DNA from: an uncultured Candidatus Binatia bacterium
Lineage (GTDB): Bacteria; Desulfobacterota; Binatia; Bin18
Reading direction: 5' to 3'
Assembly (NCBI GenBank): GCA_965200965.1
Contig: OZ241744.1
Coordinates: 2,528,001 to 2,592,000 of the forward strand
Length of the DNA: 64,000 bases
Shown here: positions 23,910 to 59,800 of the stretch, in pieces
Layout of the letters: every line of letters begins with the position of its first letter
Position numbering within the stretch: the first letter of the stretch is position 1
Program-made: the position numbers and the translations under genes
The notes under the pieces: model-generated
Databases searched by the model: none
Seen by the model: only the letters and a program-made list of their open reading frames with translations
What the model was told of the DNA's origin: nothing

Positions 23910-25542
23910 GACCGATCCGCCGATCGCGCATTTCTCCCCCAGCTTTTCCCGACTGAGTGCCGCCATTATCGCTTGGCCGATCCTCGCCTGCCTGGGTCTG
24001 CTGGGCCTGACGGGTTTCTTTGCCCTGCCCGCCCAGAGCCGCCCGGCCTGGCTGTGGTATGTTGGGCTGGGGCTGGGACTGGCCGCACCGCTGGGCGCAG
24101 TCCGCCTGAGCCGACGCCTAGCCAGACGCCTAGCCGACTTCCAGGCTCTCATTACACTCGCCCCAGAACATAGCCCGCCGCCCGCCGCCACGCAAGACGG
24201 AACATATCATCGGATCGAACGGAAGGCGACACATTCCGTCCTTGATGAACTCGGCGCGGTCGAAGACAGCCTGTGCCAGTTTCTCCACGCCCAGCACGAG
24301 CGGTTGCGATGTGTACACGATGCGCGCCACGATCTCGAAGTAGTGCTCCAGAGCATGACCGAAGGCGTCATCGTGTTGGACGCCAACAGCCGCATCCGCT
24401 TCTCCAACCGTGCCGCCCACGCTCTCTTGGGCCTGTCTGAAGAAGCCGACTTCCAGGCCAGACCCCTGTTGGAACTTTCCCGGCATCCCGTTCTCCACGA
24501 CATGGCCCGGGCCGTGCTTGACAGCCCGGCCGGGGCCGAGGCCCTGACCCAGGAGATCGAGATAGAGGGAGAGCAGCCCCGCTTGCTGGCGGTCAGCACC
24601 ATTCAGATGAAGGTCTCAGGTATGGCTTTGAAACCGGGGGTCATTCTGGCTCTGCACGATCTGACCGAACTCAAACAGCTCGAAGCCGTGCGGGCCGACT
24701 TTGTGGCCAATGTCTCGCACGAGCTGCGCACGCCGCTGACCGCCATCAAGGGCTATGCCGAGACCCTGCTGAACGGCGTACTCAACGACCCCCCTGTTGC
24801 AACACGCTTTCTGGCCATTATCGACCGTCACTCCGAGCGTCTCAGCCGGCTGATTGACGACCTCTTAACCCTGTCCGATCTTGAGCGGGGCAAAACCGAA
24901 CTGCGCCGCGACACCATCGTGTTCAGCCACCTGCTTGACGAGGTGTTCGAGCTGGTCAAAGACAAGGCCGCCAGCGGTCAGGTGCGGCTGAACGCTGCGC
25001 TGCCGGCCTCCCTCCCCTTGCTGTGTGGCGACGCCGACCGGCTCCACCAAGTCTTGCTGAACCTAGTTGACAACGCCGTCAAATATACCCCCTCGGGCGG
25101 GCGGGTGACGGTCTCCGCGCGTGCGTCCTGTCTTCCTCCTGGCGACCGGCCCGTCCTGGCGGAAACCCCAGACCCGACCGCGGATGCTGAGCATCATCTG
25201 AATCCACAAGAACTCAGCGAGGACGGAACGTGTCGCCGTCATGTCAATCTGATGACACGTTCCGTCCTCGCCCACTTTGACAGCACGGGCTGGCTGGAGG
25301 TGGCGGTTGTCGATACCGGCTGCGGCATTCGCGCAGCCGATATTCCACGCCTCACCCAGCGCTTTTACCGGGTTGATAAGGCTCGCTCACGCGAACTGGG
25401 CGGGACCGGCCTCGGCCTGTCGATTGTCAAACATATTGTGCAGGCCCACGGCGGATTTTTTCATATCGAGAGCCAGCTCGACCAAGGAACGACGATGCGG
25501 GTCTTTTTGCCGCTCGGCAACAAACCCAACTCAGGACGCTGA
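23890..25542 (+). CDS. phoR: Phosphate sensor histidine kinase with repeat-derived inserts
   Basis: PAS domain, DFVANVSHELRTPL, NLVDNAVKY, RFYRVDKARSR, GGTGLGL. Confidence 0.92.
   Translation: MPWKTTKTDPPIAHFSPSFSRLSAAIIAWPILACLGLLGLTGFFALPAQSRPAWLWYVGLGLGLAAPLGAVRLSRRLARRLADFQALITLAPEHSPPPAATQDGTYHRIERKATHSVLDELGAVEDSLCQFLHAQHERLRCVHDARHDLEVVLQSMTEGVIVLDANSRIRFSNRAAHALLGLSEEADFQARPLLELSRHPVLHDMARAVLDSPAGAEALTQEIEIEGEQPRLLAVSTIQMKVSGMALKPGVILALHDLTELKQLEAVRADFVANVSHELRTPLTAIKGYAETLLNGVLNDPPVATRFLAIIDRHSERLSRLIDDLLTLSDLERGKTELRRDTIVFSHLLDEVFELVKDKAASGQVRLNAALPASLPLLCGDADRLHQVLLNLVDNAVKYTPSGGRVTVSARASCLPPGDRPVLAETPDPTADAEHHLNPQELSEDGTCRRHVNLMTRSVLAHFDSTGWLEVAVVDTGCGIRAADIPRLTQRFYRVDKARSRELGGTGLGLSIVKHIVQAHGGFFHIESQLDQGTTMRVFLPLGNKPNSGR
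24196..24240. repeat. Palindromic element family A, in frame in phoR
   Basis: GACGGAACATATC...GACACATTCCGTC, 45 bp, encodes DGTYHRIERKATHSV. Confidence 0.9.
25217..25271. repeat. Palindromic element family A (core 25222-25266), in frame in the phoR ATPase domain
   Basis: Perfect 18-bp inverted repeat; encodes DGTCRRHVNLMTRSV. Confidence 0.92.
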
Positions 25543-26334
25543 GCGCTCGAGCGCTTGCAAAATTAAACCCGCCGCCCCCGATTCCCCCCACACGCTCGCA
25601 TCGATCAGCAGGTGATAGCGGCTCGGGTCACGCCAGTCCCCGTGGTAGAAGGTGTGAACATAGTCGCCGCGCAGCCGGTCCATGCCGGCGATCCGTTGCG
25701 CGGCTTCGTCACCCGACAGGCTCTCAATTTCCATCACCCGCTCAATACGCGCCTGGAGCGGGGCGGTGAGAAAGATGTGCAGGGCGGCGGGCTGCCCGGC
25801 CAGCACATAATTGCCGCCCCGGCCAACAATAATCGCCTGTCCGCCCTCGGCCACCTCTTCAATCAGCGACCGGGTCATGCGGACGAGCTGAGCGTCGTTG
25901 AGCCACAGCGGCGGTGGAATGTCGTAGGCCGATTCAAAGCCACCCATGCCGAACAGCCCGACCATGCGCTCAATAAAGGAATCGACCCGTTCGTCCTTGG
26001 CGTCCACATACTCTTCCGACACCTTGTACTGGCTGGCGATTTTACGAACGATTTCTTTTTCCCACACGGTCCAGCCCAAACGCTGGCCGAGGGCACGGGC
26101 GATACGGTTCCCGCCGCTGCCGTACATATGAGAAATGGTCAGGACCGACTTAGTGCCGCAAAGACACCGAGGAGTGAACGTGTCATCAGAGCGACATGAC
26201 GGCGACACGTTCACTCCTTTCGGCCTGTCTTCCTCTTGGCGAGCGGGTGGTGCGATTGGTCTTTGAGCCATAGCGGCCTCCTTCACAGCGGGGATGTTCT
26301 CAGCCAGAGAGCGGTCATCGGTCTCTTGAGACAT
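25531..26334 (-). CDS. Cytidylate kinase-like family protein
   Basis: LTISHMYGSGG, IIVGRGG, R...Y...Y..DW.DP..YHL.ID; N-terminal extension is repeat-derived and the start is uncertain. Confidence 0.85.
   Translation of the reverse strand: MSQETDDRSLAENIPAVKEAAMAQRPIAPPARQEEDRPKGVNVSPSCRSDDTFTPRCLCGTKSVLTISHMYGSGGNRIARALGQRLGWTVWEKEIVRKIASQYKVSEEYVDAKDERVDSFIERMVGLFGMGGFESAYDIPPPLWLNDAQLVRMTRSLIEEVAEGGQAIIVGRGGNYVLAGQPAALHIFLTAPLQARIERVMEIESLSGDEAAQRIAGMDRLRGDYVHTFYHGDWRDPSRYHLLIDASVWGESGAAGLILQALERSAS
26170..26246. repeat. Family A element (core 26172-26216) next to a family B core (26224-26246)
   Basis: 15-bp perfect inverted repeat AGGAGTGAACGTGTC/GACACGTTCACTCCT, then CCTGTCTTCCTCTTGGCGAGCGG. 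Confidence 0.85.
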
Positions 26335-27001: not shown

Positions 27002-27820
27002 TTACTGTGGTGCCATCCGAATCGCGCCGTCGAGACGGATGGTCTCTCCGTTCAACATCACGTTTTCCACGATATGACAGGCCAGCGCGGCGTATTCGGC
27101 CGGCGTGCCTAGGCGCTGGGGAAACGGAATACTGGCACCGAGGGACTGGCGGGCCACTTCGGGCAAATCCATCAGCATCGGGGTTTCAAAGATCCCCGGC
27201 GCAATTGTACAGCAGCGGATGCCGTCCCGGGCCAAGTCACGGGCAATCGGCAAGGTCATGCCCACCACCCCGCCTTTTGAGGCCGAGTAGGCCGCCTGTC
27301 CGATCTGGCCGTCGAAGGCGGCAACCGAGGCGGTGTTGATGATCACGCCCCGTTCGCCGTCCGCGGTCGGCTCGTTTTTGGCCATCTGGGCGGCGGCCAG
27401 CCGGATGGTATTGAAGGTTCCGATCAGGTTGACCTCGATTGTGCGTCTGAACGGCCCGAGAGCCAGGGGCGTGCCTTGAGGACGGAACGTGTCACCTTCC
27501 GTTCGATCTGGTGACACGTTCCGTCTTTTGCCCAGGGTCCGGCCGGCGGTCGCAATACCTGCGCAGTTGATGAGCGCGTGGATGGTGCCAAAGGCGGCGA
27601 CCGTCTTGTCAATGGCCGCTGCGGTCTGGTCTTCGTCGGTCACGTCGGCCTCAAGAAACCTCGCGCTCTCGCCCAACTCATGGGCGAGCTCTGCCCCGCG
27701 TGAACGGCCAAGGTCAAGGATGGCGACCTTGGACCCTCTGGCCGTCAGGGCGCGGCTCGTGCCCTCGCCGAGTCCGGAGCCGCCCCCGGTCACAACAGCA
27801 ACGGTGTTCTGTATATCCAT
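27002..27820 (-). CDS. SDR family 3-hydroxyacyl-CoA dehydrogenase (HSD17B10-like)
   Basis: [32 protein letters not shown]. Confidence 0.93.
27481..27525. repeat. Palindromic element family A, in frame in the SDR gene
   Basis: Perfect 16-bp inverted repeat; encodes [15 protein letters not shown]. Confidence 0.93.
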
Positions 27821-27847: not shown

Positions 27848-30800
27848 CTATCCAGGCTGCTTTCTCAATCCCACCCGCTGATAGACTTTGGGCAGCTCGG
27901 TCGGCAGCGAGGCCACATCGTCAAGCACCAGGTAGCGCGACGGTTCACACATTTCGCGCAGATAATCGTGGCCGGCTTTATCAACCGTCAGACAGAAGGT
28001 CAGCACGCCGGCCTTTTCGGCTTCGCGCAGGGCCACCATTGTATCCCGAATGCCATAGGTCGTAGAGCGCCGGTCCGGGCCGTAGTCCATGTCTTGGGGA
28101 AAGCCGTCGCTCAGCAGGATCAGCAGCTTGACCCGGCAGGCCATATTTTTGAGCTTTTCCAAGGCATGTCGCACCGCGGGTCCCATCCGGGTTGAGCGCT
28201 TGGGTTCGATGGCCCCGATGCGCCCTTTGACGGTCGGCGACAGGGCCTCGACAAACGACTTGACGTGGTAGAACTCGATGTTGTCCCGGCCCTGGCCTGA
28301 GAAACCATAGATGGCGTAGGAATCGCCGATCTCTTCAAGCGCCTCAGCCATCAGTACCAGGGTCTCTTTGGTGACATCAATAATGCGGCGCGGTTTGGGC
28401 TGGGCCGGGGGCGGGTCGTGCCTCGGCCAGTCATCAGCTTCTTCGTCGCTGTAGTCGCGCGCAGGCGGGACGAGCGGCTCGTCGGTTGAGGCGCTCATGT
28501 CGAGCAGAAAGAGGGCGGCCACGTCGCGTTCGGTCTGCCGGCGTTCGGTGTACAGCTTGGCCGAGGGGGGGCAGCCGGCGCGCCTGTCAACGGCCGCGGT
28601 GACTGCGGCGTTGAGGTCAAACTCGTGGCCGTCTTCAAGGCCGCGCACCAGCCGGTACTGTTCCGGTCGGATGCGTTGGAACTCGTGTTTGATGGCCGGG
28701 GTCAGGGCCGTGTAGTCGCTGAGCGTCCGAGAAAAAAACTCGCCGGCGTCGCCGGCCAGCACGATCTCTCGCAGCCGACACCAGCGGGTCCGGTAGTCGG
28801 CGATCTGATAGTCCCACTCGTCATAGTAAAAGCTCAGGTCTTCCTGGTGCCCGACGCGGCGCTGACCGCCGGCACGCGCCGCGTCATTTCCCACGGCGGT
28901 GTGCTTCATTTCGCTCTGGCCCGGCAGTTTTCCGTTCAAATCGCTGGCGTACAGCCCTTGGGGGGTGAGCCTGTCCTGTTTGCCCTGACGAATCTGGAGC
29001 TCAAGGCCGGCCTCGATCAAGGCTTTGAGTTCTTCGGCTGACAGGGGGCTGCCGCCCGTGTCCTCCTCCATTTCGTCTTCTAGCTGTAACTCGGGTATCT
29101 CGGGCGGCGCTTGGGCCGGCGGCGGACTGTCGTTATTATCCATGTCCGGGTCAATCAGAGCGTCACCGCTCAGTTTGTCAAAGACGAGGGGGCCAAAGTC
29201 CGCAGCCTCGTCCGGGTTGGGGCGGGCGGTGGCCAGTGAGGACAGAAGCCGCAGGTAGAGCGTGGCCGCGGTCAGGGCCGAGTCGTACACCGACTGCTGC
29301 AGGTCTGCCGCGGCCGGCAGATCTGACCACAACGATTTCAGGGAGACCAGGGTTTCTGGCAGCAGCGAGGGCAGAGACAAGGCGTTCAGCCACGCCACAT
29401 CTGCGCTCAGACCCCGATACGCCGCGGCCAAGCGGGCTTGAATACGTTGGGTCTCGGTCAGCACAAACAGCGCTTCAACAATGTCGGGATGGACAAAGCA
29501 GCGAAAATACTCGGCCAAGCCGCCCAGAGGACGGAACGTCTCGCCTTCCGTTCGATCTGATGACACATTCCGTCCTTCCGGAGCCGCGTCGTCGCGCATG
29601 ATGCGGCGGACCGCGGCCGGCAGGTCTGACCACAGCCGGCTGAGTGAGAACTGGTAGGTGCCGAACTCGCGGCGGCCGGCCTGCTGAGCGGCCAGGGCGC
29701 GAAACAGCCGAAAGTTTTCGTCCCAGGTCTCAAACATCTCAACCCGGCCCGGCAGGGTCAGCTCTTCGCTCGGGGCTTCTTCAAGCACGGGCGGGTAGGA
29801 GAAAAACTCCTGGCGTCGAATGCCGACCGGGGTGCCGGTCAGCATCTGGATGTATTTGCGCAGCAGTTCCTGGACCTCTTCAAGATCAATGCCCGCCGAT
29901 GCTTGGCGCAGGACCTGAAAGCTGGTGCGTGACTCCAGGGCAAAATAGGCCACCCCGGCCTCGGGGTTGTCGGCGGCAATGCGTGCGCCTGTTGCCAGCC
30001 ACTCCTGGAGACCGGCGTCACTGGTTTCTTCACAGACCCGGGGCAAGGTCCGAATCAGCCGCGGGATGGCGGCCGGAAAGGTATTGGCCAAGCCGAGCAG
30101 GCTGTGTTGCAGGGCTGGCTGCCCGGCCAAGTCAATGGTCTTGGCCACCGGTCCCAGCAGAGGCAGCAGGCCGGGGACCGTATGCGGGTCTGAACAAATC
30201 ACCGGGGCCAGGGCGAACAGATAAAAAGACCGCAGGGCTGGACTGAGACTCGCCAGGGTCGGCGGCAGGCCAAAAAAAATCTCTGTCGCCGCCGGGGCAG
30301 ACCGGTCGGCGGCCTGTTGGACGGAGAGCAGAAACGCCAGGCGTTGGGACTGACTCAAGGCTATGAAACCGTCGGGCAGACGGGTATAGAACATCTTTGA
30401 CCCAGATTCTTGGACCAGGACGCCGAGTTTTGCCCAAGCCGCTATTTCCTCGGGACTCAGAACTGGCAGAGCGGCCGCGGCCGACGAGAAGTAGGACACG
30501 GCCAGAAACTCGCCCTTCCAGCCGTTGCAGCCCAACAACAGCCGGCCCTGCTCGGCCCAGGCGCGCAGGCGTAGCCCAAAGGGGACCGGCAGCTGGTCAA
30601 AAAGCGGGGCCGAGGCTTGAAAGAACTGCGTCCCAAGGCGACGCGAGACCCGGAGAACGTCGCGCCCAACAGCGACCCATTCTTCGGCCCGTTCGAGACC
30701 GCGCCGCCGGACCGAGTCGGGTGGAATCGCAAAATAGGCGAGCGCACCGTCGCGTGAGGCCGGCTCGTGCCCGGCCAGGTCTTCGCCAATTGCCGCCCAG

Positions 30801-33367: not shown

Positions 33368-34112
33368 GGCTCAGCGGCTCCTGGGACCGGGTGAGGATAT
33401 CGACCAGGGTCTCGGTGTACTCTTCGGTCAGCCGGGTCAGGTGTCGGACCCGGCTGGTGAGGTGATGATAGAGCAGATAGTATGGAATGGTCACACTCAG
33501 GCCGGCCGCGGTGGTGATCATGGCTTCGTAGATACCGCCGGCCAGGATGTTAATGGTAATCTGATCGCCCATGACCTCCCAACTCATAAAGGCGCGGATC
33601 AGACCGATGATTGTGCCCAGAAAGCCCAGCATCGGCGCGACCCCGACCACCGCCGCCAGGACGCTCAGATAGGACTCCAGACCGGCAACGACATCGCCAC
33701 CGAGACGTTCGAGACGCCGGGTCAACTCGCCGCGGCCGTGCTCACGGTACACAATGGCGGCTTCAAACAGCCGGCTGAGCGGGCTGGTGTATTCACGACA
33801 GACGCCAAGGGCGATTGAGATATTGCCCTCGGCCAACTGGGGTTCAATACGCTGGTTGAGGGCGTTGAGGTGCTTCCGAAACCGCCACAGGGACCAGAGT
33901 TTCGCCAGCACAATGGCAAGGGCTACGACTGACAGAGCGGCGATGATGAGCAGGACCACGCCGCCTTTGGCCAGAAAAAACCAGACTCCCTGGTCTGTTG
34001 GTAAAATCGTGATGGCCTTTCGCCCTTGCTGTACAGACGCCTCGCCTGTTTTCCGCTTGGCGAGCGGTGAGGACGGCTCGTCTTTGTCAGACTTCACAAT
34101 TCTTGGTGACAA
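33357..34112 (-). CDS. exbB: MotA/TolQ/ExbB proton channel protein
   Basis: APMLGFLGTIIGLI, GGIYEAMITTAAGL; start uncertain; N-terminus contains a family B element (34034-34086). Confidence 0.88.
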   Translation of the reverse strand: MSPRIVKSDKDEPSSPLAKRKTGEASVQQGRKAITILPTDQGVWFFLAKGGVVLLIIAALSVVALAIVLAKLWSLWRFRKHLNALNQRIEPQLAEGNISIALGVCREYTSPLSRLFEAAIVYREHGRGELTRRLERLGGDVVAGLESYLSVLAAVVGVAPMLGFLGTIIGLIRAFMSWEVMGDQITINILAGGIYEAMITTAAGLSVTIPYYLLYHHLTSRVRHLTRLTEEYTETLVDILTRSQEPLSHAV

Positions 34113-36549
34113 AGTCCTGGATCTGTTTTTTGAGCTGCGGGTCTCCCAGCCGGTTCAGCATGGCCCGGGTGCCGCGGGCGGTACGACAGCCGGCCTGGGC
34201 GTTGCCGAGTGAGGCGTTGAGGACGGCGACTTCATACGAGCCACGAAACCAGATCGGGTCTCCGACCTGTGAATCCTGGAGCATTTCTTCCCAGTAAGCC
34301 AGCGCTTGCTGTTTGTCGTCGTTGACCTCGGCGATGTGGGCGAGGCCGGCCAGCGAGACCAACGAATAGGCCCCGTCCTGGAGTTCGGTATACAGGGCCG
34401 CGGCCCGGTCGTAGTCTTTGACGTCCAGGTAGAGTTGGGCCAGTTCGTATTTGAACTTGTCCTGGGATTCGTCGGCGGCAAAGTCCTGGCGGGCAATTTT
34501 ATCGCTGTACAGGCGGACCAGGGTGCGCTTGGCGGCCTGGAGGTTTTCTCCAGGGGAATCGTCTGGTCTTCCGCTCGAAAGCTCAGGACGATTCATCTGC
34601 TTTGTCAGGGTCCGAATATCCCGGACTAAGACCTGGTCAAGGGCTTTGAGCAACTCAAGACGCTTGTCGCCGTTATAGTTGGCGAAGATGGCCTCTACGT
34701 TTTTTTCCAGTTCTTTGAACCGGCCGGCTTTCTCCAGGGTAATCAGCCGGACGCGGGCGACGGTTTCAAAGGCATCTTTGTGGACCGGATACTGCTGCTC
34801 GAAGTCGTGCAGCAGGTCGGCGATCTGGACGGCGTTGGCATCGATATCTTCGCTGAGCAGAACTGCATGCATGAACTTGACCCGGCCGCGGTAGTTCCTG
34901 AGATTTTCGCGTTTTTTGCCCTTGGGATTCTGCTGCTCAAACGCAGCGCTGCTCCGCTCAAAGGAGACGAGGGTATCGGCGATTCGCTGTTTGAGCTCGT
35001 CGAGACTGATGCCCGGGTCTTTGGCCGGTGCTTCTTGGCGCAACGCTGCATCGTCTTGTGACTGGTCAGGGCTATTCGTCTTGTGTTCGTAGATCGAAAA
35101 GTAGCTCTGGAGGGTGGCAAAATCGGCCCGGAAGCGAAATTCGATATTACCGCGCACCTGCCGATAGGCATTGACGGCTTCGAGATAGTTTTCCTGCCCG
35201 TGATGGTACTCACCGAGTCGAAAGTGTGCCTCGTGCAGAGCTTTTGAGCGGTTTTTGGTATCGCGCCTGATCAGGTCTCTGGCCGAATCCACATACAGGC
35301 GACCGTTGGCCTGATTCTGTGAGCGGGCAAACAAGGTCTCGGCGGCCTTGAAACGCAGGTAGGCAGCGTTGATCACATTTTTGGACGGCTTGCCACCCAG
35401 GTAGCTGTCGAGGGCGGTTATCGCTTGGCGCAGCCTGCCAGTCCTCACCAGGGCGTCGCCGAGATAATACTGGGCGTCCTGCTTGTAGCGCTGGGCGCGG
35501 GGGTCATCTGACTCCAGAACCGTCCGCAGCAGCGGAATGGCCTTGGCGTGCCGGCCTTGCCGAATAAAGGTCGCCGCGTTGTTCCACGGCAGGTAAGGGT
35601 TGAGGGTCAGCTTTTCGTCTTCGTTGAGTTCTTTGGCCAGCAGCGTATCGGCCCTGTTCTTCCACGAGTCGTCGGCGTCTTGGGATTCTTTGACCCCCAA
35701 TACCAGGCCGATTGCCCGCTCACGCGTCTTGTTGCGCTGCTTGCCCCGTTCTTGCTGGCTGCGCTCAAACAGGCCGGTGGCTTCGGCCAACTGTTGTTCG
35801 AGCAGGTCCTCAGCCGTGGGACCTTGGCGGGGCCGGCGGCCGCTCCTGGCCAGCCGGCGGGTCTCTTTCAGCGCGTTGCGGACCTTGGTACGCATGCTGG
35901 GGCTGGTTGCCCGATCTTGCAATAGCGCCTCAAAGTCTCTGATCGCCCAGTCATACTCGCCCAGTTCCCGCTCGCTCAGGGCGCGGCCGAACAGGGTTTC
36001 GCGTTTGACGTTGGACGCCGGCCCGGAGGCAAACTCGGAGAAGCCGTTAATCGCGTCTTTGAGCATTTGGGTTTGCCGCTTGCCCTCATGCACAAAGGAG
36101 CCGATATAGTTGAGCCAGTTCAGAAAATACAACGATCGGGCAGCCACATCCTGGGCGTCTCTCCAGCGGGCCTCTTCGTACAGCGCCTCAAGGTCGTCGT
36201 CAACGGCCATGATGTCTTGCATCCAGCGCTCCATAGCGTCGGTGTTGGCCTTGTAGATGGCGTGCAGAGGCGCGTTCAGGTCGGTATAAATCTGCCGCAC
36301 GGTTGAGCGCTTGGTCTTGACTGCGCTGGCCAGATCAGAGGCGGCCACAAACTCCATGACCAGCGGCCCGATGACGGCGATGGCGTCAAGCTGTCCGTCC
36401 TTGCCGGTGTTCTTCAACTCGTTGGCGCGATTTTTTGCCTGGACAGCACGCGACGACAAGTCTGAGATCGTCGCCGCACCGCTTGACCCGGGATCTGTCA
36501 GACCGGACGCCAGGGCCAAAAGACAAGTTATGACAATGATGCGTCGCAC
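34087..36549 (-). CDS. Exported TPR-like alpha-helical protein
   Basis: Signal peptide; TPR-like segments (AQYYLGDALV, AHFRLGEY, YELAQLY). Confidence 0.8.
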   Translation of the reverse strand: MRRIIVITCLLALASGLTDPGSSGAATISDLSSRAVQAKNRANELKNTGKDGQLDAIAVIGPLVMEFVAASDLASAVKTKRSTVRQIYTDLNAPLHAIYKANTDAMERWMQDIMAVDDDLEALYEEARWRDAQDVAARSLYFLNWLNYIGSFVHEGKRQTQMLKDAINGFSEFASGPASNVKRETLFGRALSERELGEYDWAIRDFEALLQDRATSPSMRTKVRNALKETRRLARSGRRPRQGPTAEDLLEQQLAEATGLFERSQQERGKQRNKTRERAIGLVLGVKESQDADDSWKNRADTLLAKELNEDEKLTLNPYLPWNNAATFIRQGRHAKAIPLLRTVLESDDPRAQRYKQDAQYYLGDALVRTGRLRQAITALDSYLGGKPSKNVINAAYLRFKAAETLFARSQNQANGRLYVDSARDLIRRDTKNRSKALHEAHFRLGEYHHGQENYLEAVNAYRQVRGNIEFRFRADFATLQSYFSIYEHKTNSPDQSQDDAALRQEAPAKDPGISLDELKQRIADTLVSFERSSAAFEQQNPKGKKRENLRNYRGRVKFMHAVLLSEDIDANAVQIADLLHDFEQQYPVHKDAFETVARVRLITLEKAGRFKELEKNVEAIFANYNGDKRLELLKALDQVLVRDIRTLTKQMNRPELSSGRPDDSPGENLQAAKRTLVRLYSDKIARQDFAADESQDKFKYELAQLYLDVKDYDRAAALYTELQDGAYSLVSLAGLAHIAEVNDDKQQALAYWEEMLQDSQVGDPIWFRGSYEVAVLNASLGNAQAGCRTARGTRAMLNRLGDPQLKKQIQDFVTKNCEV

Positions 36550-36577
36550 GCTCCCTCTCCTCTATGGTGTGCTTCTC

Positions 36578-36625
36578 CTCATCGTCCTCACATCTTGCTC
36601 AGTGAAGACAAGACGATGAGTCTTT
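36578..36625. repeat. Palindromic element family B, intergenic
   Basis: Minus strand AAAGACTCATCGTCTTGTCTTC...GTGAGGACGATGAG. Confidence 0.75.
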
Positions 36626-38306: not shown

Positions 38307-38343
38307 GCGTGTGTCTCCTTCCCCCCAGAAAGACGAATCGTCT

Positions 38344-38991
38344 TTAGGAGGCCTGGGGCGCTTCTTTCCTGCCGGTGCGGATCGCGTCAATGATGCGATC
38401 GGAACCAATCGTCATGGCCGTATCAATACGTTCCAGCTTGGTATTGAAGTAATTATAGAAGATAACCGCAACAATCGCGACCGCCAAGCCCAACGCTGTA
38501 GCCACCAGGGCCTCAGAAATACCGCCGGCCACAACAGTAAACCCACCGCTGCCCTCGACCGCCATATTCTGGAAGGACTTGATAATCCCAATGACCGTAC
38601 CCAGCAGGCCGATAAACGGCGCGCTGACACCGGTGGTAGCGAGAATCCAGATTGCGCCCTTGAGCCCTTCGGCCTCTTCAAGACGCCGTTCTTCGGACAG
38701 GGCTGACAACTGCTCAGCAGACTCGTCCTGCTGGCGATCGATAATCTCGTGGAACACCCGCCCAGCAGGCCCTTTGTTCTGCTTCTGGCTGGTCTGTAAG
38801 GCGGCATTGAAATCACCCTGCTGCAGCGGGCTCACCAAGTCTCTGGCCAGATGCAGGGTTTTCGTCATGATCCCGCCCAGCGCCCACAGCCGTTCCAGGA
38901 TGATGGTAATACATACCACCGACATGACGATCAGCGGGTAGCTGACATACCACCCCTGGTGAATCATATCCATTACGCTTAGACCTTCCAT
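38344..38991 (-). CDS. exbB: MotA/TolQ/ExbB proton channel protein
   Basis: APFIGLLGTVIGII, GISEALVATALGL; ATG 38991 with AAGGAGG RBS. Confidence 0.92.
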   Translation of the reverse strand: MEGLSVMDMIHQGWYVSYPLIVMSVVCITIILERLWALGGIMTKTLHLARDLVSPLQQGDFNAALQTSQKQNKGPAGRVFHEIIDRQQDESAEQLSALSEERRLEEAEGLKGAIWILATTGVSAPFIGLLGTVIGIIKSFQNMAVEGSGGFTVVAGGISEALVATALGLAVAIVAVIFYNYFNTKLERIDTAMTIGSDRIIDAIRTGRKEAPQAS

Positions 38992-40623: not shown

Positions 40624-40699
40624 GGTATTCTCCCTCAATACTGATCGTCTTGTTTTCCTGATCAAGCTGTTAAGGCAATTCATCTTTTACGCTGAAGTG

Positions 40700-44916: not shown

Positions 44917-44978
44917 CGGAAAATTTCTTACTATCGCAGTTTTCCTTCTCCGTTCTCTTAAATTTCAGATTCTGCGCC

Positions 44979-47822: not shown

Positions 47823-47863
47823 GCAAAAGCTTGGGACGATGGGTCTCGAAGGAGGGCAATCCG

Positions 47864-52098: not shown

Positions 52099-53306
52099 AT
52101 GTCTATCCGGTACACACCGATGGTCTTTTTCCTGGCCGGATCGTAGTGCCGCCATTTTTCGGCCGGGACCTGTTCGGCCGTAACCCGCCGGAAGCCACTG
52201 CGTTCGAACAAACGCCGAGCCCCGGCCTGAGAGGTACAGGCAAACACATAGCCCAAACCAGCCGCCCGGGCCTGTTCCAGCATCGTCCCGACCAAACGGC
52301 CACCGATTCCCTCGCCCTGAAAACGGGTAATCGTATACAGCCCCGCGATTTCTGCAGCATTCTTCCTGGGATAGGGCAGCAGGGCACAGACCCCGGCCAA
52401 CTCTCCGCCGGCCGCTCCGAGACGGGCACAGTGTCCGTGGAACAGCAATTGACTGGTCTCTGTGTGGCTGCGAGGTTTGAGGCCGCCATCGCGTTCGCCA
52501 CGCCGGATCAGCCGCTCGGCTTCATAAAAGTCGTCTAATCCCAGCGGCTCTAGCCGGCAGTAATCGGTCAGGGTAAAGAGTGTCCCCTGCCCTTCATAGG
52601 TAAACAGTTCTCCCGCCACATCGGCCGGCCGACACAGCGAAACCGAGGCAACCCCACCCTCCAGGGCCGCCCGGACCGACGCCAGGACGCCCAAGTCTTT
52701 CTCTTGAACGGTGCGGACAGGCGGTGTTCCTGCCGCCCGGGATTGGTCCAGGAGTTTATTCAGCGCGGCCCCATTCATAAAAGACACGCGATTTCCTCTG
52801 ATGCAGAGACCACCGTTCGGGTCAAGGATGACGAGTTTATGGACCTTGAGACGAACGGCTAAACGTTGGGCCGGGGATTGCTCACCGACGCCAGGACGCC
52901 CAAAAGATGCATCGTCCTGTCTTCCCCTGGGACGATGCGCCTTTACCGGCCCGACGGTCCGCCTCTGAGGAGCCGGCCACAGGCCGACAAAGATCGGTGT
53001 TGTTCTGAGAACTGTCCATATGTGTTCCAAGACACTGTTTTCCTCGGCCGGCAACGCGACGAACCGGGCGGCCAGAGCGATGCGCAACAGTTCCAGCCCG
53101 GGTTGGTCCGAGTCGTCCGTTTCGATCAGAACGATCAGTCGCGTTTCGTTACGCGTCAACTGCTGGCAGACCTCGGCCATCGCCTTGACCGCTGCCGTGT
53201 CTCTCAGGTCTTCGGCCCGCAGGCTGAAAAAGAGACTCTTGCCGCAAAACTCTTTAAGGTAAAAGTCTTGTTCGATAAACGAAGCGGGCGTGAAGGTCTG
53301 GCTCAT
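52095..53306 (-). CDS. argA: Amino-acid N-acetyltransferase (ArgA-like: degenerate kinase-like domain plus GNAT)
   Basis: ELFTYEGQGT, AEIAGLY..RFQGEGIG. Confidence 0.8.
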   Translation of the reverse strand: MSQTFTPASFIEQDFYLKEFCGKSLFFSLRAEDLRDTAAVKAMAEVCQQLTRNETRLIVLIETDDSDQPGLELLRIALAARFVALPAEENSVLEHIWTVLRTTPIFVGLWPAPQRRTVGPVKAHRPRGRQDDASFGRPGVGEQSPAQRLAVRLKVHKLVILDPNGGLCIRGNRVSFMNGAALNKLLDQSRAAGTPPVRTVQEKDLGVLASVRAALEGGVASVSLCRPADVAGELFTYEGQGTLFTLTDYCRLEPLGLDDFYEAERLIRRGERDGGLKPRSHTETSQLLFHGHCARLGAAGGELAGVCALLPYPRKNAAEIAGLYTITRFQGEGIGGRLVGTMLEQARAAGLGYVFACTSQAGARRLFERSGFRRVTAEQVPAEKWRHYDPARKKTIGVYRIDI

Positions 53307-53338: not shown

Positions 53339-56300
53339 TCAGGTGGACATTCGCCTTTGTGCAAGCAGGGCTTGGGCGTCAGCCCGGGCCCGCTCGTCCC
53401 AGGCAAAGTGTATACCTGTGGACGAACGGACAAACAGGACCGCCAAGTCCTTTACAGGATAGGCGGTCAGTTGCTCAAGGGCGAGGGCATAGGCGTATAG
53501 CCCAGAGCGGCAGCGGGCGGCCTGACTTTCAGCTTGGCCGTCCGCAACAGCATCCGTCTTCAGATCAAGAATGACCCAGGCCTTGTTTTCAACAAAAGCC
53601 AGGTCGATCACGCCGTTCAGGACTATGTCCGTGTGGGGTGGGGCTTGATAATGCAGGCTGAAGGGCAGGTCGGCAAAACAGTCCTGGGCGGCGCGGGCCC
53701 TGCTCAGGAGCGGGCCGGTCAGGACGTTGCGGACGAAGCGTTGCAGGGGGGTGCCGGCGCTGACAGCAAAGGGAAGCGTGATCTCCTGTGTGTTACCACG
53801 ATTCCCCGTGCCGTCATTTGGGCGGTGGCTCGTTTTGATGCTCTGTTTCAACGCCATGCGCACGGCGCGGCCGAACTGCGGCTCTGCCCCTGGCGAGATG
53901 AATCGTCTCGTCTTCCGCTCGAAAGGTGAAGACGATTCATCTCTATCCCGAGGGTGATCAGAATCTTGGGTATGCTGGACCAGAGACTCGACGCTTAAGG
54001 TAAGCGACGATCTCTTCTCGATGAGGTGGTCTGCATTATACACGGTCTGGGGCTGTCTGCCCTGTTCTCTGATCGCCTGTTGATCGGCCTGCCAGGACTG
54101 GTAGCGCTCAAACGCGGACTGATTGGGCGGGACGGGGGGCCGCGGTCCTCCTGCGGCTGGGCGGCCGGCGGCGTGGAGAGGTGGGGGGTCTGGGGAGATG
54201 ATCGGCTTGGGTTCGGCGGCATTGAAGACCTGCCACAGGCTCTGGCCGGTGGTGCTTTCCAACTCGGGCAGCAGGGGCAAAATGAGCCGGTCGCGCGCCC
54301 GTGTTGCGGCGACATACCACAGGCGTCGCTCCTCGGCCTCCTCGCGGGCTCCCTCACGCGCCTCCGCCTCCCGCCAGCCGAGCGTATGCCAGGCCAGGGT
54401 CTGCGGACCGAGCCGCAGTTCGAGGTGCCCCCGGGGCTGGACAAGTCGGTCCCCTTCCGCCTCCTGAGGCGACGGCGGTTTGTGGCTGCGTTCGATCAGA
54501 CCGGTCCGGCTTGAGCGACCCGGGGCGAGGATTGCATCGGCAAGAATCACGACCGGAAACTCAAGTCCTTTGGCCTTGTGAATCGTCAGGAAGCGAACGG
54601 CCGGTCCATGCTCTTCTGCGACCGCCGCCTCGCCTTCCTCAGTCGCCCGGTGGTGATGAGCAAGAAAGCGGTTGAAGGCGCTCAGGCTGCGAACGCCCTG
54701 GTCAGCCAAGCTCTGGGCAAGCTCAATCAGTTTGATCAAGTTTGCCGTTCGCTGGCTCCCCTGGGGGCGGAGGGCAAACAGGGGCACGAGATGGGTCTGA
54801 TAGATATCGTACAACACCGTTGATGGGCTGCACTGCCGGGAGCGGGCGTACAGCTCGCGCAGCAACGCAAAAGCCGCTCCAAAGCGGTCCGCGTCCGGCA
54901 GCCCGGCCGGCGGGGCGTGGGTGTAGTCAAAGACTCCCCCGGCAGCGGCGAAGTGCAAGAGCGCTTCGTCTGAAAAGCCGAACAGGCACGACCGTAAGCT
55001 CGCTACCAGGGCGTTGCTGTCAGCCGGACTGTCGATGACACGCAGCAGCACACGGAGTTCCTCAACCTCGTCCCGAGTCATATACTGACGCCCGCCGAGA
55101 ATCTGATATGCGATAGCGGCACTCTGGAAGGCTTCCTCGTAGGCATCCATGGCGCGATAGGTACGGAACAGCACGGCAATGTCACCATACGCCTGGTCTC
55201 CCTGCCCGAGGCGGTGTTTGAGGAAGCCGGCCACGGTTTGGGCCTCTGCCCGGCGCAGGTCGTCACGCCCCGGCTGGGACGGCAGCAGGTCCGGGGGAAC
55301 TGGAACGGAGATGACCGTCTGTCCTTGGGCGGTCTGGCCCGTGTCTGTGCTGTGTTCTTCCTGTTCTTCGTGGCGGGTTGGCAGCAGTGGACGATAGCTG
55401 GGGGCATCTTCAGCAGTGTTGGGCGCAAACACGCGAGAAAACGTTTCGTTAATCCAGCTCAGAATTGGCGCTCGGGTCCGGAAATTGCTTGACAGGCTCA
55501 GCAGCGTTCCCTGGCTTTCGATAGTGGCCCGGACGAGATGATAGACGGCGAGATCGGCACGTCGAAAACGGTAAATGGACTGGTGTGGATCGCCGACCAG
55601 AAAAAGCTTGCCGGGTTTCAGGATAACGTGGCTCCAGGCGTGAGCCCGAGGCGTGTGTTCGGCCAAAAAGAAGATAATTTCGGCCTGGAGGGGATCGGTA
55701 TCCTGGAATTCATCAACCAGAAGAAAGTCGAATTTCTGCTGAAAATACCGGCGCACCTCCATATTGTTGGCCAGCAGGTCTCGGGTGTACAGCAGCAGGT
55801 CGGTAAAATCGAGAGACATCTGCTGGCGTTTTGCGTCGTCATACACTGCCAGATAGCCGCTCAGCCACCGGACAAGCGCAAGCGTGTGGTTATGCACCCA
55901 GGCCGCACGCGCCTTGCTGTGGGCGTCACGCAACTCGGCAAAACAACGCCGCACCTCATCCAGACGGAGGGTCGGCTGCCAGTGGGTTTTGTTGCCGACC
56001 CGCTCCGGCAACTCCAGCCGGCTGTACAGCAGACGCTCCCAAAGCGGGTCAGCGTCGCGGTCCGGCATTTGCCGGATGAGGTCCATCATCCGTACAAAGG
56101 CCCGGTCGCTCGGCTCTGTACACGCCGACCGGAGCTGAGACAAACGCCCGATGGACTGCCGAAAGCTATGCCGGAATTGGGCCAGGGGGGAGGCCAGCGG
56201 CTTGGGCAGGAGGGCCAAGCAGTCTCGCTGCTCAACAACAAAGTCACGCAAGGCCCGCAGATGGCTCAGGCTCAGACCGGCCCGGAGGGCTGTTTTCAGG

Positions 56301-56866
56301 AAAGCCGCAACGTCCTCATGTGAAGACGATGCGTATGGTCTTGCTCTTGGCGAGCGGTGAGGACGCTGCGGCTTTCTGTCCTGGCTTGACCCCATCTCTT
56401 GGGCCAGCCAGTCGCGCCAGGTTTGATCCTGGACGACCCGCCTGCCAACCCCGTCCAGGACGCTGAAATTCGGGTCGACCAACGCCTCCAGGGGCCGCTC
56501 GCGGAGTAACAGGGCGCAAAAAGCATGCACGGTCAGAATCGAGGCCCGTTCGAGTTGAAGACGCGCGGTGAGCAGATTACGCTGCTCGTCCTGGCCGAGC
56601 GGTGTGTTCAGGGCGGTGTCAATCTCGGTCCGCAACCGAATACGGAGTTCGGTCGCCGCCTTTTCGGTAAAGGTGATGGCAGCGATCCGATCCAGGCGGC
56701 TCCGACCGGTCCGAATCACCGTGAGCAGGCGTTGGAGCAGGACGCTCGTCTTGCCCGTGCCCGCCCCGGCTTCTACCAGGAAGCTGGTGTCGAGCTCACT
56801 CGCCGCCCGATCGCGCGGCTGAGCGTCACAGGCACGCGTGGTGTCCTGGTTGTCTGGGTTGCTCAT
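53339..56866 (-). CDS. addA: UvrD-like helicase/nuclease AddA
   Basis: VEAGAGTGKT, ITFTEKAA, VDEFQDT, TIHKAKGLEF, YVAATRA, GVIDL..DLK. Confidence 0.92.
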   Translation of the reverse strand: MSNPDNQDTTRACDAQPRDRAASELDTSFLVEAGAGTGKTSVLLQRLLTVIRTGRSRLDRIAAITFTEKAATELRIRLRTEIDTALNTPLGQDEQRNLLTARLQLERASILTVHAFCALLLRERPLEALVDPNFSVLDGVGRRVVQDQTWRDWLAQEMGSSQDRKPQRPHRSPRARPYASSSHEDVAAFLKTALRAGLSLSHLRALRDFVVEQRDCLALLPKPLASPLAQFRHSFRQSIGRLSQLRSACTEPSDRAFVRMMDLIRQMPDRDADPLWERLLYSRLELPERVGNKTHWQPTLRLDEVRRCFAELRDAHSKARAAWVHNHTLALVRWLSGYLAVYDDAKRQQMSLDFTDLLLYTRDLLANNMEVRRYFQQKFDFLLVDEFQDTDPLQAEIIFFLAEHTPRAHAWSHVILKPGKLFLVGDPHQSIYRFRRADLAVYHLVRATIESQGTLLSLSSNFRTRAPILSWINETFSRVFAPNTAEDAPSYRPLLPTRHEEQEEHSTDTGQTAQGQTVISVPVPPDLLPSQPGRDDLRRAEAQTVAGFLKHRLGQGDQAYGDIAVLFRTYRAMDAYEEAFQSAAIAYQILGGRQYMTRDEVEELRVLLRVIDSPADSNALVASLRSCLFGFSDEALLHFAAAGGVFDYTHAPPAGLPDADRFGAAFALLRELYARSRQCSPSTVLYDIYQTHLVPLFALRPQGSQRTANLIKLIELAQSLADQGVRSLSAFNRFLAHHHRATEEGEAAVAEEHGPAVRFLTIHKAKGLEFPVVILADAILAPGRSSRTGLIERSHKPPSPQEAEGDRLVQPRGHLELRLGPQTLAWHTLGWREAEAREGAREEAEERRLWYVAATRARDRLILPLLPELESTTGQSLWQVFNAAEPKPIISPDPPPLHAAGRPAAGGPRPPVPPNQSAFERYQSWQADQQAIREQGRQPQTVYNADHLIEKRSSLTLSVESLVQHTQDSDHPRDRDESSSPFERKTRRFISPGAEPQFGRAVRMALKQSIKTSHRPNDGTGNRGNTQEITLPFAVSAGTPLQRFVRNVLTGPLLSRARAAQDCFADLPFSLHYQAPPHTDIVLNGVIDLAFVENKAWVILDLKTDAVADGQAESQAARCRSGLYAYALALEQLTAYPVKDLAVLFVRSSTGIHFAWDERARADAQALLAQRRMST
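53895..53943. repeat. Palindromic element family B variant, in frame in addA
   Basis: Perfect 14-bp inverted repeat GAGATGAATCGTCT/AGACGATTCATCTC; related copy at 34556-34594. Confidence 0.82.
56300..56376. repeat. Palindromic element family B (long form), in frame in addA
   Basis: 19-bp arms with 1 mismatch; 56347-56375 is identical (29 bp) to 57432-57460 in addB. Confidence 0.85.
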
Positions 56867-56880
56867 CACGAGTGCCGGTG

Positions 56881-59800
56881 TCAGCCGATTGTGTGGAGCT
56901 GGTGCAGGACGGCCCAACGCGGGTCATGGCGTTTGTGTCGCATCCGTTTGCCGACCTGGCTGCCGCAGATCTCGGGAAAAGGGCACGGATAACAGGTGTC
57001 GGGGTGTGGAAAAAAGCAGCCGGACCGGATTCCCTCCAGCAGAGTGGTGAGGAGAGACCGCAGGACGCGGACTGACTCCGGCCAAGTTTCTTCGCTAAAC
57101 ATGGGGGTGACGGTATGGACACGCTGGCCGAGCCCGACATAGCTGGCCGATTCCCACGCCAAGTCAGGCCGCAGGCTGCGGGCCGCAAACAGATACAGCG
57201 GAAGTTGCAGGGCGGTCCCTGCGGCAAACAAGCGTGATGTCCTTGTGGGCCTTGTCACGATTGCCTGTGACCGACCGCGTGGCAGGTGGCCGGTTTTATA
57301 GTCAATGATCCGGGCTTTTACCTCAGTGGAAGACACATCGATCCGATCAATCCTGCCCTGCAAGCAAATAGGCTCCCCGTCTTCGAGGCTGAAGCTGACC
57401 GGTCGGTCAGGGAAAAACTGCGAGTCGCGTATTGGCGAGCGGTGAGGACGCTGCGGCTTTGCTGAACCAAAGGCGACCTCAAAAGCGTGGGGCACAAACT
57501 CTGATTCGTCCGCCGCCTCCTGATGGACCAGGCGAATCAGGCCTTCCCGCAACTGTTCCTGTTCAAGCTCCCATAGCAGAGGCAGGCCGGTGGGCTGAAG
57601 TTCGGCAAAACGGGTAAAGTGTTGGTCAGCAATGGGTATCAGCCGCCGGACCAAAAGCTGAGGGTCCTGGCCGTGCATGGGCAGTTGACCGGCCGCCTTC
57701 AACTGGGAGAAAAAGTCGTACACAATAGCGTGCAGCAGAAGGCCCCGCTGGCGAGGGCTGAGGGCCACCATCTCCTCAGCATCGTCCGTCGGAGTCAGAC
57801 CCAGCACATGACTGAGGAAATAGAGAAAGGGACACCGGGCGTAGGTTTCGAGGGCACTTGGCGAGACACAAACCCCGGAGGGAAACAGATGTTGGTGCAG
57901 CCTGCGCTTGGCCTCAGGAGCTTTGAGCAGACCGTCAAAGGCGGTGAGATGTGGACTGTCCAGACGTTGGCCGATCGCCTGCTGGGCGTAGGAAAAGGCG
58001 GGTGAGGCGAGCGGGAGATAGCCCAGGACACTCACATCGCCGCTGGCCAGCGCCTGCTCAACCGTCGCCAAGTGGAATTCGAGGGCATCTTGGGCCTGCT
58101 GGACGGACCCGGCGTACACTGGTGTCAGCGGGACGCGCTGACACCAGGCTTCCAGATCGGCAAAGGTTTGCACTTGACCCCGCAGGGCCTCAAGGACGCG
58201 CAACAGATACCAGGAGGGCAGCTGGGGACGGCCGCTCGCCTGGTCGTGGCTGGGATAGCTCAGGATGAGGTGTTCAACCGCACTCTGGGTAGCCAGACAG
58301 AACAGCAGACGTTCTTCCTCGGTGTGCTGACTGCGTTGGGCAAGCTCACAGCCGAGCGTCTCGGCCAGGTGTTGGCGTTCAGCGTCGAGCAGCAGCGGGT
58401 CTTGTCGAACGCTGCGCGGGAAGCCCCCGTCAACCATGCCGGGAATGATGACGGCTCGAAAACGGACGCCCCGAGCCGCGGACAGCTCACCGATGAAAAC
58501 GCCGTTGGTCTGACCGGTGGGGGAAAGACGATCCGTCTGTGTGGCAAGGGCCTGGCTGACGGCCTTCGCCCAGTCTTCAAGGCGTGGGGTGGGCGCGTCC
58601 TGTCTTGCGCTTTGCGACCGGTGAGGATGCTGCGTCTGGTCGCTCAGGTCAAGCTGGGCCAAATCCAGCAGCAGTTCTTCAATGTGGTCGGTATACACCG
58701 TCGTGCCGCTATAGGTGCGGTACAGCCGCCAGCTGTAGTCTGCCCAGGCGTGCCAACTCGGCCGGCTCGGCCGCGGCTCGGCCGCGGCGAACAGCCCACG
58801 CATAAAGGCCATGCACGCTTGCAACATGGGCAGAACGGCCGTGGCCTGGTCTGCACCTTTCTCGGCCTCGTAGGCTTTTTCAAGCTGGGCCAGACCGCGT
58901 TGCCACTCCCGGCGGCCGCTGACAATGCCTGCCTGCTGGACCAAGGCGTGCCAGCGGTCGGGCTGGGCGTGCTGAACCATAGCGTCCGGCAGCAGGCTGG
59001 CGTAGGGCGGCTGGCTGACACGCAGAAACTCAAACACCCGGTCAGGCGCGTAGTCTTCAACCAGCATACGACACAGCAGGTGCAGGGCTCGGCCGGCCGA
59101 GGTATGGAGCAGCGGCAGACCGCCGGACAGCCAGCTTGGGATGCCCAGATTCTTGAAGGTCTCGGTCAACAACGGACCGTAGCGGGCCGGGTCGCGCAGC
59201 ACGATCCCAATTTCAGAAAAACGGAGCCTGTGGTCGCGGACAAGAGACAGCACCATCCGACTGATCTCACGCGCCTCGCGGCTGTAACTCGGCGCTGCCA
59301 GGCAACGAACGGGGACGGCGCTGGCCGAAGAGATATCTTCATGGGGTCGGTCATCAACCCTGTCTGGTGTGGTCTGGGGCACCTCTTCAAAAAGGGAACG
59401 GTGGAGCCGAGACAGCCCGGACTCTGCCGAGCGGGCGAGAGGGGTAGAGGTGAACCCCAAGCTCCGCAGCCAGCTCAGCGTCGGCGTCGCATGGGCATAC
59501 GCGTTGCCCGCCCGCCAGGGAAAGAAAACCAAGCCGTCGCGGTCTTGCAGGGCGGCCACAATCAGACGCCGCTGGAGTGGGCTGAAGTCAGAGAACCCGT
59601 ACACAAACAGAGCGCCCGAAAGACGCCTCGGCCCGTCTTCCTCTCGTCTTTGTGATGCTTCAAGCTCAAGGGCGGCCTGTTCCAGCATATCCTGATCATC
59701 GTACAGCCGCCGGTCGGTGAGAAACCGCTGGTACTGCCCGTACAGCATGGCAAGACTTTCGATCTTTTTCCGGTAGACACCGCTCAGTCCTGCCCGAGTC

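What the first reader, a model, noticed from the sequence alone, without database searches (positions are those of the whole stretch)
25124..59651. Family B: second, more numerous 52-54 bp palindromic element in housekeeping proteins including ProS
Seen: consensus AAAGACGCATCGTCCT-GTCTTCCTCCTGGCGAACGGTG-AGGACGATNCGTCTTT. Full or near-full copies at 40521 (histidine phosphatase), 40903 (proS), 47480 (anmK), 34034 (exbB N-terminus), 36578 (intergenic), 52902 (argA), 53895 and 56300 (addA), 58591 (addB), 34556 and 35048 (TPR gene). Fragments at 25124, 26224, 38329, 39043, 40643, 42541 (ispD), 46655, 47803, about 49030, 57432 and 59619. Most coding copies give a recognisable peptide K-T-x-R-P-x-R-S...R-Q-D-D-A-S. 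The range from near-identical to heavily decayed copies suggests long activity with erosion that keeps the frame (inference). Like family A, the arms contain GACG/CGTC, which may point to a shared mobilising enzyme (speculative).
Basis: partly seen in the sequence, partly recalled or inferred. Interest (0 to 1): 0.88.

Follow-up and report, generated by a model that had tools for sequence, protein, structure and literature searches.

The report
Gene-invading hairpins crowding the replication origin
A 51-54-base hairpin repeat sits, without shifting the reading frame, inside dozens of core genes of an uncultured bacterial lineage, and its copies crowd the part of the chromosome near the replication origin and resemble their neighbours, so it likely spreads by short local hops driven by an enzyme that was not found.

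Summary
Confirmed. Family B is a real insertion element. ProS, the histidine phosphatase and AnmK carry exact 54-bp inserts (16-bp arms, 22-nt loop, no target duplication) that three same-genus relatives lack. B is not separate from A: both belong to one 51/54-bp hairpin superfamily, with 187 copies in this genome and none in a reversed control. It was found in two genera of one family only. All 30 coding sites with a length difference keep the frame, and hydrophilic frames are favoured. The scan had already reported the 51-bp form elsewhere in this genome (e1-7191693). New here: 20 of 26 copies of the 54-bp form lie in one 90-kb stretch around parAB; copies resemble their neighbours; and density in shared DNA is about ten-fold higher within 300 kb of oriC, with a similar gradient in most of ten relatives, while a REP family in the same genome shows none. 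No linked Y1/RAYT, IS110, serine recombinase, reverse transcriptase or Cas1 was found. It works like Rickettsia RPEs and fails the CGTC-REP test. Verdict: new variant of a known kind; mobiliser open.

The parts
40902..40955 (+). B2 copy, 54 bp, in proS (gene on -); adds 18 aa after Pro440
   Evidence: empty in G002, G004, G005; shared with G007
40520..40573 (+). B2 copy, 54 bp, in histidine phosphatase gene
47480..47533 (-). B2 copy, 54 bp, in anmK
34033..34086 (+). B2 copy at the exbB/tolQ-like N-terminus; collapsed by 36 bp in G007
34552..34600 (+). B1 copy in TPR gene
35042..35083 (+). eroded B copy, 42-bp insert, in TPR gene
36575..36626 (-). eroded B2 copy overlapping the stop codon of the vWA gene
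38329..38345 (.). 17-bp collapsed B remnant at the tolQ stop
39042..39066 (+). B2 fragment near the C-terminus of the PadR-family gene
40640..40690 (+). eroded B copy between proS and the phosphatase start
42535..42562 (+). B remnant in ispD; G005 has an independent family C insert at the same loop
46654..46680 (-). B2 half copy in the anmK N-terminus
47800..47845 (+). eroded copy supplying the anmK stop codon
49030..49068 (-). eroded B2 copy, intergenic
52902..52945 (+). loop-deleted B2 copy in argA
53894..53944 (+). B1 copy, 51 bp, in addA
56301..56375 (+). nested double B2 insert, 75 bp (105 bp in G007), in addA
57432..57460 (+). B2 remnant in addB
58591..58640 (+). eroded B2 copy in addB
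59619..59651 (+). B2 copy collapsed to 33 bp in addB
25124..25150 (+). B2 remnant in phoR (54 bp in G007)
26220..26267 (+). eroded B2 copy next to a younger A1 copy
26169..26219 (-). family A1 copy, 51 bp, absent from G007
25219..25269 (+). family A2 copy, 51 bp, in phoR, absent from G007
24196..24246 (-). family A2 copy in phoR, absent from G007
27478..27528 (+). family A2 copy, 51 bp, in an SDR gene, absent from G007
29527..29577 (+). family A2 copy, 51 bp, in a 1050-aa gene, absent from G007
6354..6404 (+). family A2 copy, intergenic
5496..5545 (+). family C copy in the ppx gene

Best explanation
Family B is one subfamily of a non-coding 51/54-bp hairpin element that inserts without target duplication and survives in genes because its length is 17 or 18 codons; it is likely copied as a folded single strand by a trans-acting cut-and-join enzyme (HUH-like, not identified), mostly to sites close to the donor. 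Shown: exact-length inserts, no duplication, a weak one-sided target, free orientation, paired changes in both arms, frame-keeping erosion, local resemblance and the origin-proximal gradient. Inferred: the single-stranded intermediate and the enzyme class; selection for hydrophilic, loop-tolerated peptides; and that the gradient comes from local hopping compounded over generations in the origin region (founder copies there, with or without a dosage advantage). B2 would be one such local burst around parAB before the G000/G007 split.
For: Clean empty sites give 51 bp (A, B1) or 54 bp (B2). No 4-5-bp duplication in 85 copies. A one-sided target with C at -4 (81%) scores LLR 97 against a null maximum of 48, and loop orientation is free relative to it, 29:27. 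Arms covary: 105 cells with changes on both sides against 35 shuffled; 32 compensated positions in 56 A copies against about 3 by double hits. Frame: 30 of 30 coding sites against 17 of 34 others. Orientation is 70:16 in genes but 19:18 between co-directional genes; the most hydrophilic open frame is used 27 of 51 times (14 expected), the most hydrophobic twice. Local copying: nearest sequence neighbour within 20 kb for 23 of 134 copies (3.6 expected); adjacent copies share a family in 71 of 186 cases (37 expected, maximum 59 in 5000 shuffles). B2: 20 of 26 in 2.499-2.589 Mb against 21 of 161 other copies. Gradient.
Against: No Y1 transposase in G000, G003, G004, G005 or G007. The 21 Y1 loci of relatives carry no copy; several are flanked by GTAG-type repeats instead. 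No leading/lagging bias of the target strand (26:30), which IS200/IS605 elements show (search listing of PMC6006769). No lone arm pairs flank a gene. Overall similarity does not fall steadily with distance (Spearman 0.016); only very near neighbours are alike. A shows a small excess of 1-bp flank identity (25 of 64 against 15). No presence/absence polymorphism was listed among near-identical strains (tables cut). With A clusters collapsed at 20 kb the origin bias is weak (21 of 33 in the origin half, p 0.08).
Confidence: 0.5

Rival explanations
1. No dedicated enzyme: host replication or repair copies the hairpin by template switching or captures it at nearby breaks, and origin-region processes (ParB/SMC loading, fork activity) set the gradient.
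For: No mobiliser tracks the element. A parS-like site (2,510,759), parAB and scpAB lie inside the B2 stretch. The gradient is fitted better by flat-plus-peak than by 2x or 4x dosage. Two neighbours 950 bp apart share a rare loop but have different arms.
Against: Exact ends in many independent events and a one-sided target argue for an enzyme. No Ku in 8 of 8 genus genomes. Same-genus G002 has one site and four genus-g8 genomes have none. Nearest neighbours are not mirrored about parS or oriC (p 0.26, 0.97).
Confidence: 0.25
2. The origin enrichment is only retention: copies land anywhere and persist in the stable core genome, which lies near the origin.
For: This is the reading given for Pseudomonas REPs and core genes (PMC3390384 passages). 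B1 copies far from the origin score slightly higher (rho 0.42).
Against: Within DNA shared with G007, density is 20.0 and 19.1 per 100 kb inside 300 kb and 1.3-2.9 beyond 1 Mb; G007 gives 13.1 against 1.6-2.2. Shared DNA far from the origin is no more diverged (91.2% against 90.4%), and 21 GTAG-type REP sites in G000 are not origin-biased (5, 1, 5, 3, 7 by fifth).
Confidence: 0.08
3. RNA-mediated copying: the hairpin is cut from transcripts and reverse-transcribed back in cis.
For: About 46% of copies lie in genes and so are transcribed if the genes are; an RT gene lies at 2.405 Mb near an A cluster.
Against: That RT is interrupted by a stop in G000, has no copy beside it, and element-rich G005 has no RT match. 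Intergenic orientation is neutral. G-T and A-C mismatches are about equal on the loop strand.
Confidence: 0.07
4. The copies are kept as binding sites that organise the origin domain, in the manner of parS or matS (recalled).
For: The gradient recurs in two genera.
Against: Arms differ between subfamilies and turn over between species; copies erode freely; close relatives lack them.
Confidence: 0.05

Closest known systems
Rickettsia palindromic elements (RPE-1 to RPE-8) and similar coding palindromes of Wolbachia and Methanocaldococcus
   Same: Palindromic, lineage-restricted, found between genes and in frame inside conserved genes, with no known mobiliser (PMC2229807 passages; PMC3733652 passages). 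Both hit tRNA synthetase and DNA-repair genes.
   Different: RPEs are 105-146 bp in that review; this unit is 51/54 bp with a fixed 16-bp stem. No sequence link was tested. No origin gradient or local burst appears in the passages seen; the primary Ogata and Suyama papers were not available.
Intragenic multicopy sequences of Geobacter bemidjiensis and G. metallireducens
   Same: [quoted passage not shown]
   Different: The G. metallireducens family is built of four heptamer repeats. A motif search of 12 of 15 G. bemidjiensis supplements gave two isolated short matches and no loop match.
CGTC and GTAG REPs, REPINs and RAYT transposases
   Same: Short hairpins, compensatory stem variants, some intragenic copies in recBCD-type and tRNA synthetase genes, sometimes supplying stop codons.
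   Different: No terminal tag or tail, longer stem and loop, single units rather than dimers, no RAYT link, 46% of copies inside genes, and enrichment near the origin where Pseudomonas REPs are said to be typically absent.
Local hopping of insertion sequences
   Same: Short-range spread inferred from clustering (PMC4369082 abstract).
   Different: Those are autonomous elements of about 1 kb; this one encodes nothing.

Membership tests
RPE-like coding palindromes (a kind, not a sequence family) | multicopy palindrome | tested here: met
   187 copies, 0 in control; stem covariation
RPE-like coding palindromes (a kind, not a sequence family) | in-frame insertion in conserved genes, empty in orthologs | tested here: met
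RPE-like coding palindromes (a kind, not a sequence family) | insert lies in a tolerated surface loop | tested here: inconclusive
   ProS model: coil 441-469 between helix 431-438 and strand 470-474 of the C-terminal part, but mean pLDDT 48.8; alignment to 1H4Q breaks at 431-462
RPE-like coding palindromes (a kind, not a sequence family) | host genes are translated and active | not testable with these tools
   no RNA holder listed
Rickettsia RPE families proper | 105-146 bp length and Rickettsia range | tested here: not met
   51/54 bp; found in two genera of one family only
CGTC REPs | terminal unpaired CGTC tag and CCA tail | tested here: not met
   CGTC lies inside the paired arm; ends are RAAG/RAGG and CTTY/CCTY
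CGTC REPs | stem 8-9 bp, loop 4-5 nt, mostly head-head dimers | tested here: not met
   stem 15-16 bp, loop 19-22 nt, single units
GTAG REP / REPIN | GTAG end and a cognate RAYT flanked by the repeat | tested here: not met
   no Y1 in G000; 21 Y1 loci of relatives carry no copy
MITE (IS630-type) | TA or other target-site duplication | tested here: not met
MITE (IS630-type) | ends shared with an autonomous IS | tested here: inconclusive
   4 lone arms in G000, none paired round a gene; IS110 loci of relatives show no copy at their ends
Rfam RNA families | match at gathering score | tested here: not met
   0 matches in the window

The most novel reading that the evidence does not exclude
A transposase-free mobile hairpin whose copying is coupled to the host's origin domain (ParB/SMC loading or replication initiation), so that it writes 17-18-residue peptides preferentially into origin-linked housekeeping genes: a chromosome-position-targeted source of new protein sequence.
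Probability: 0.2. Interest if true: 0.87.

Novelty: new variant of a known kind. Interest (0 to 1): 0.62.

Why it matters
How tiny coding palindromes such as RPEs move has been open since they were described. This lineage offers unusually good material: more than a dozen near-complete genomes that are rich, poor or empty, dated waves (old B2, young A, E in the sister genus), dozens of clean empty sites, a target preference and a positional gradient. Any proposed mobiliser must explain exact 51/54-bp inserts, no duplication, local hops and the origin bias, and can be sought by gene-content contrast. It also shows selection on de novo peptides directly: orientation is free between genes but filtered toward hydrophilic frames inside them.

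Tried and rejected
Mobiliser searches. Y1/RAYT: 3 of 8 genus genomes and 8 of 14 genus-g8 genomes have matches, none flanked by the element; tblastn with those proteins finds no transposase in G000. IS110: 4 of 8, absent from G000, G003, G007. RT: 6 of 8, not tied to copies. Resolvase: 8 of 22, absent from G000, G007 and seven element-rich g8 genomes. Cas1: 17 of 22, in rich and empty genomes alike. Ku: 0 of 8. Y2: 0 of 8, but its control rang nowhere, so uninformative. Pfam scans of 88 and 83 proteins in and around clusters showed no transposase or recombinase (171 scanned out of 260 listed; several have no family). Patterns in metagenome contigs: 0 and 0. Viral contigs: 0, 2 and 0; the two hits lack the stem. 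Plasmids: none. No RNA holder listed. Mirror symmetry about parS or oriC: not supported. Strand bias with replication: not seen. An apparent avoidance of convergent intergenic regions (1 of 55) weakens to 9 convergent against 19 divergent once stop-overlapping copies are included, so it is not claimed. The 55-bp gap in runs X11/X12 at 44933-44987 is not an element. A joint that skips the 40520 copy in four runs comes from short, less similar contigs and was read as other organisms. Single-copy folding z-scores are modest (-1.2 to -4.1).
Full report
Setting. The window is G000:C1:2,528,001-2,592,000 of a 3.62-Mb single-contig genome. The closest named ProS relative, L120 (87%), is titled Candidatus Binatia, and several runs holding the stretch are labelled sponge metagenome. 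Gene calls outside the window come from my own hexamer caller (3,481 genes, 90% coding); gene names come from NCBIfam and Pfam.

Observation. All 22 positions hold the element or a remnant. ProS carries 18 extra residues after Pro440 that ten of the eleven aligned homologs lack; the eleventh is the 99%-identical P0001. At DNA level the inserts in proS, the histidine phosphatase gene and anmK are exactly 54 bp, a 16-bp arm, a 22-nt loop and a 16-bp arm, absent from G002, G004 and G005 and present in G007. Other sites are eroded or nested by multiples of three (33, 42, 75 bp). Four other runs cover the region without a listed element-sized gap in their long near-identical contigs, so this is not an assembly artefact.

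One superfamily. A genome-wide hairpin scan and six profiles give 187 copies at E<0.1 (A1 52, A2 31, B1 28, B2 26, C 44, D 6) and none in the reversed genome; five more (one E, four F-like, one of them the 47803 copy) were found later and are not in the counts. A and B1 share the 19-nt loop starting GCCTTCCTC/GTCTTCCTC and differ in the arms; B2 has a loop three bases longer. On a 30-copy alignment 88% of stem cells pair and 15 of 16 pairs show changes on both sides (related copies inflate this). A covariance model from that alignment hits 8 of 8 genus genomes and 0 of 23 others in one sample; a class-wide sample of 151 adds 10 of 14 genomes of a second genus of the same family and nothing elsewhere. 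That genus carries a 54-bp family E. G002 has one site and G004 about eleven. The model scores at most 150 candidates per genome, so counts are lower bounds.

Selection on the peptides. Of 187 copies 86 lie inside genes, 46 overlap gene ends (36 of them contain the stop codon) and 55 are intergenic, against 90% coding DNA. All 30 coding sites with a length difference to a relative differ by a multiple of three, against 17 of 34 other sites (only sites with both flanks anchored in fetched DNA were counted). Orientation is 70:16 in genes and 19:18 between co-directional genes. Open frames are about as common in both orientations for B (32 and 35), so stops do not explain this; the most hydrophilic open frame is used in 27 of 51 full-length coding copies (14 expected) and the most hydrophobic in 2. 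The ProS model is poor overall (pLDDT 48.8) but places the insert in a coil between a helix and a strand of the C-terminal part, where the alignment to Thermus ProRS 1H4Q also breaks.

Insertion chemistry. Clean empty sites give the element length with no duplication. No 4- or 5-bp duplication was seen in 85 A and B copies; A shows a small excess of one-base flank identity (25 of 64 against 15) that the empty sites do not turn into a longer insert. A two-orientation motif fit finds a one-sided target with C four bases 5' of the cut (81%; LLR 97 against a null mean of 32 and maximum of 48 in 40 sets), and the loop points either way relative to it (29:27); there is no replication-strand (26:30) or coding-strand bias. 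The outermost pair is usually A..C or G..T, the same mismatch read from either strand (42 of 64 A copies). Compensated arm changes number 32 in 56 A copies, 12 of 18 variants private, against about 3 expected from double hits.

Local spread. The nearest sequence neighbour lies within 20 kb for 23 of 134 long copies (3.6 expected); neighbouring copies share a family in 71 of 186 cases (37 expected); 79 gaps are under 3 kb (27 expected). Overall similarity does not fall with distance (Spearman 0.016), so short hops are mixed with long jumps. B2, the subject of the finding, is the extreme: 20 of 26 copies lie in 2.499-2.589 Mb against 21 of 161 other copies; G007 has 23 in its 540-kb syntenic piece and none in 800 kb sampled elsewhere. 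Fifteen of 18 testable B2 sites are shared with G007, while 16 of 23 A sites are only in G000.

Origin bias. dnaA is at 2,701,343-2,702,710 with 13 DnaA boxes just downstream (motif recalled). An inversion relative to G007 explains why the GC-skew minimum lies at 2.48 Mb. In G000, 85 of 187 copies lie within 300 kb of oriC (31 expected; 35 of 105 against 17 with 5-kb clusters collapsed). In DNA shared with G007 the density is 20.0, 19.1, 9.3, 6.5, 1.3 and 2.9 per 100 kb outwards, and G007 gives 13.1 against 1.6-2.2. With dnaA as proxy, G005 has 35 of 98 (11 expected) and G006 29 of 101 (11 expected). In the second genus five of seven genomes are strongly enriched (23 of 50, 27 of 52, 19 of 26, 24 of 44, 19 of 41), two weakly (5 of 17, p 0.06; 12 of 58, p 0.04), and the fifth nearest the origin is the fullest in all seven (rounded genome sizes). 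These genomes are kin: 12 orthologous pairs were found among 56 loci checked, so there are perhaps three independent lineages. A pure exponential needs an origin/terminus ratio of 9-35; flat-plus-peak fits better, and 2x or 4x dosage fits worse. Controls: 21 GTAG-type REP sites in G000 show no bias, and shared DNA is no more diverged far from the origin. Against: the 20-kb bin holding oriC is empty and the excess within 50 kb is not significant in G000; the young A family is only weakly biased once clusters are collapsed at 20 kb (12 of 33 within 400 kb, 7.3 expected, p 0.04). A parS-like site (motif recalled), parAB and scpAB lie inside the B2 stretch, but copies are not mirrored about it.

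Mobiliser. None was found; see Tried and rejected. I commit to a hairpin-recognising single-strand cut-and-join enzyme acting in trans because exact ends, no duplication and a one-sided target match that chemistry as known from IS200/IS605 (recalled; PMC3116915 passages). The missing Y1 gene and the missing strand bias keep this at about even odds.

Literature seen. PMC3733652: passages. PMC2996986: passages, section 21, and a search of 12 of 15 supplements (the three unseen files hold alignments that could bear on sequence kinship). PMC2700814, PMC3116915, PMC3390384, PMC2229807: passages. PMC4369082: abstract. Ogata 2002 and Elhai 2008 are not held; Ogata 2000 and Suyama 2005 are known only from citations and recall. 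Ten searches showed no description of this element in Binatia and no report of an origin-crowded small repeat; most subscription papers are outside that library.

Verdict. The confined B2 burst, local descent and conserved origin gradient make it a new variant and a tractable case for finding how such elements move. Interest 0.62.

Noticed in passing
window 12054-13541 (-) and 13573-14697 (-): A 495-aa ORF with PT-TG and Tox-ART-HYD1 domains, a bacterial polymorphic-toxin-like gene, with a tandem duplication near 12590-12706; the stretch has no match in the G002, G004, G005 or G007 pieces.
   Followed up: no
window 43001-44916 (-): EcoRI-like endonuclease and D12-class methyltransferase pair, present in G000 and G007 only; runs X11 and X12 lack 55 bp just upstream at 44933-44987.
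   Followed up: partly
window 40700-42274 (-): ProS is the archaeal/eukaryotic type (TIGR00408) with next-best relatives in PVC-group and Fibrobacterota records; among 31 genomes only the genus, G013 and G026 have it, suggesting transfer into the lineage.
   Followed up: no
L211:14777-14987 region (G000:C1:2,702,777-2,702,979): Thirteen perfect DnaA boxes between dnaA and dnaN, nine of them at exact 11-bp spacing.
   Followed up: partly
G000:C1 about 2.486-2.67 Mb, including the whole window: Inverted relative to G007, which shifts the GC-skew minimum about 220 kb away from oriC and moves parAB further from it.
   Followed up: partly
L261 (G000:C1:2,404,925-2,406,298): Reverse transcriptase gene interrupted by a stop in G000 and open in G007.
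   Followed up: partly
G000, 21 sites; L055, L056: A separate GTAG-type REP family persists in G000 without its RAYT, which survives in G006 and G001.
   Followed up: partly
window 42535-42562, 34085, 47800, 52902 against L025-L028 and L023: Relatives carry independent family C inserts at or beside the same sites, pointing to a limited set of tolerant loops.
   Followed up: partly
window 25219-25269 and 26169-26219: Two copies 950 bp apart share a rare loop variant but have different arm types (A2 and A1), hinting that loop and arms can be inherited separately.
   Followed up: no
window 27848-31000 (-) and 60803-62158 (-): Long ORFs (1050 and 451 aa) conserved in relatives with no Pfam family at E 1e-6.
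   Followed up: no
G000:C1 about 272-277 kb: A long sequence repeated some 20-26 times turned up in a 24-mer count, beside several CRISPR-like arrays elsewhere.
   Followed up: no
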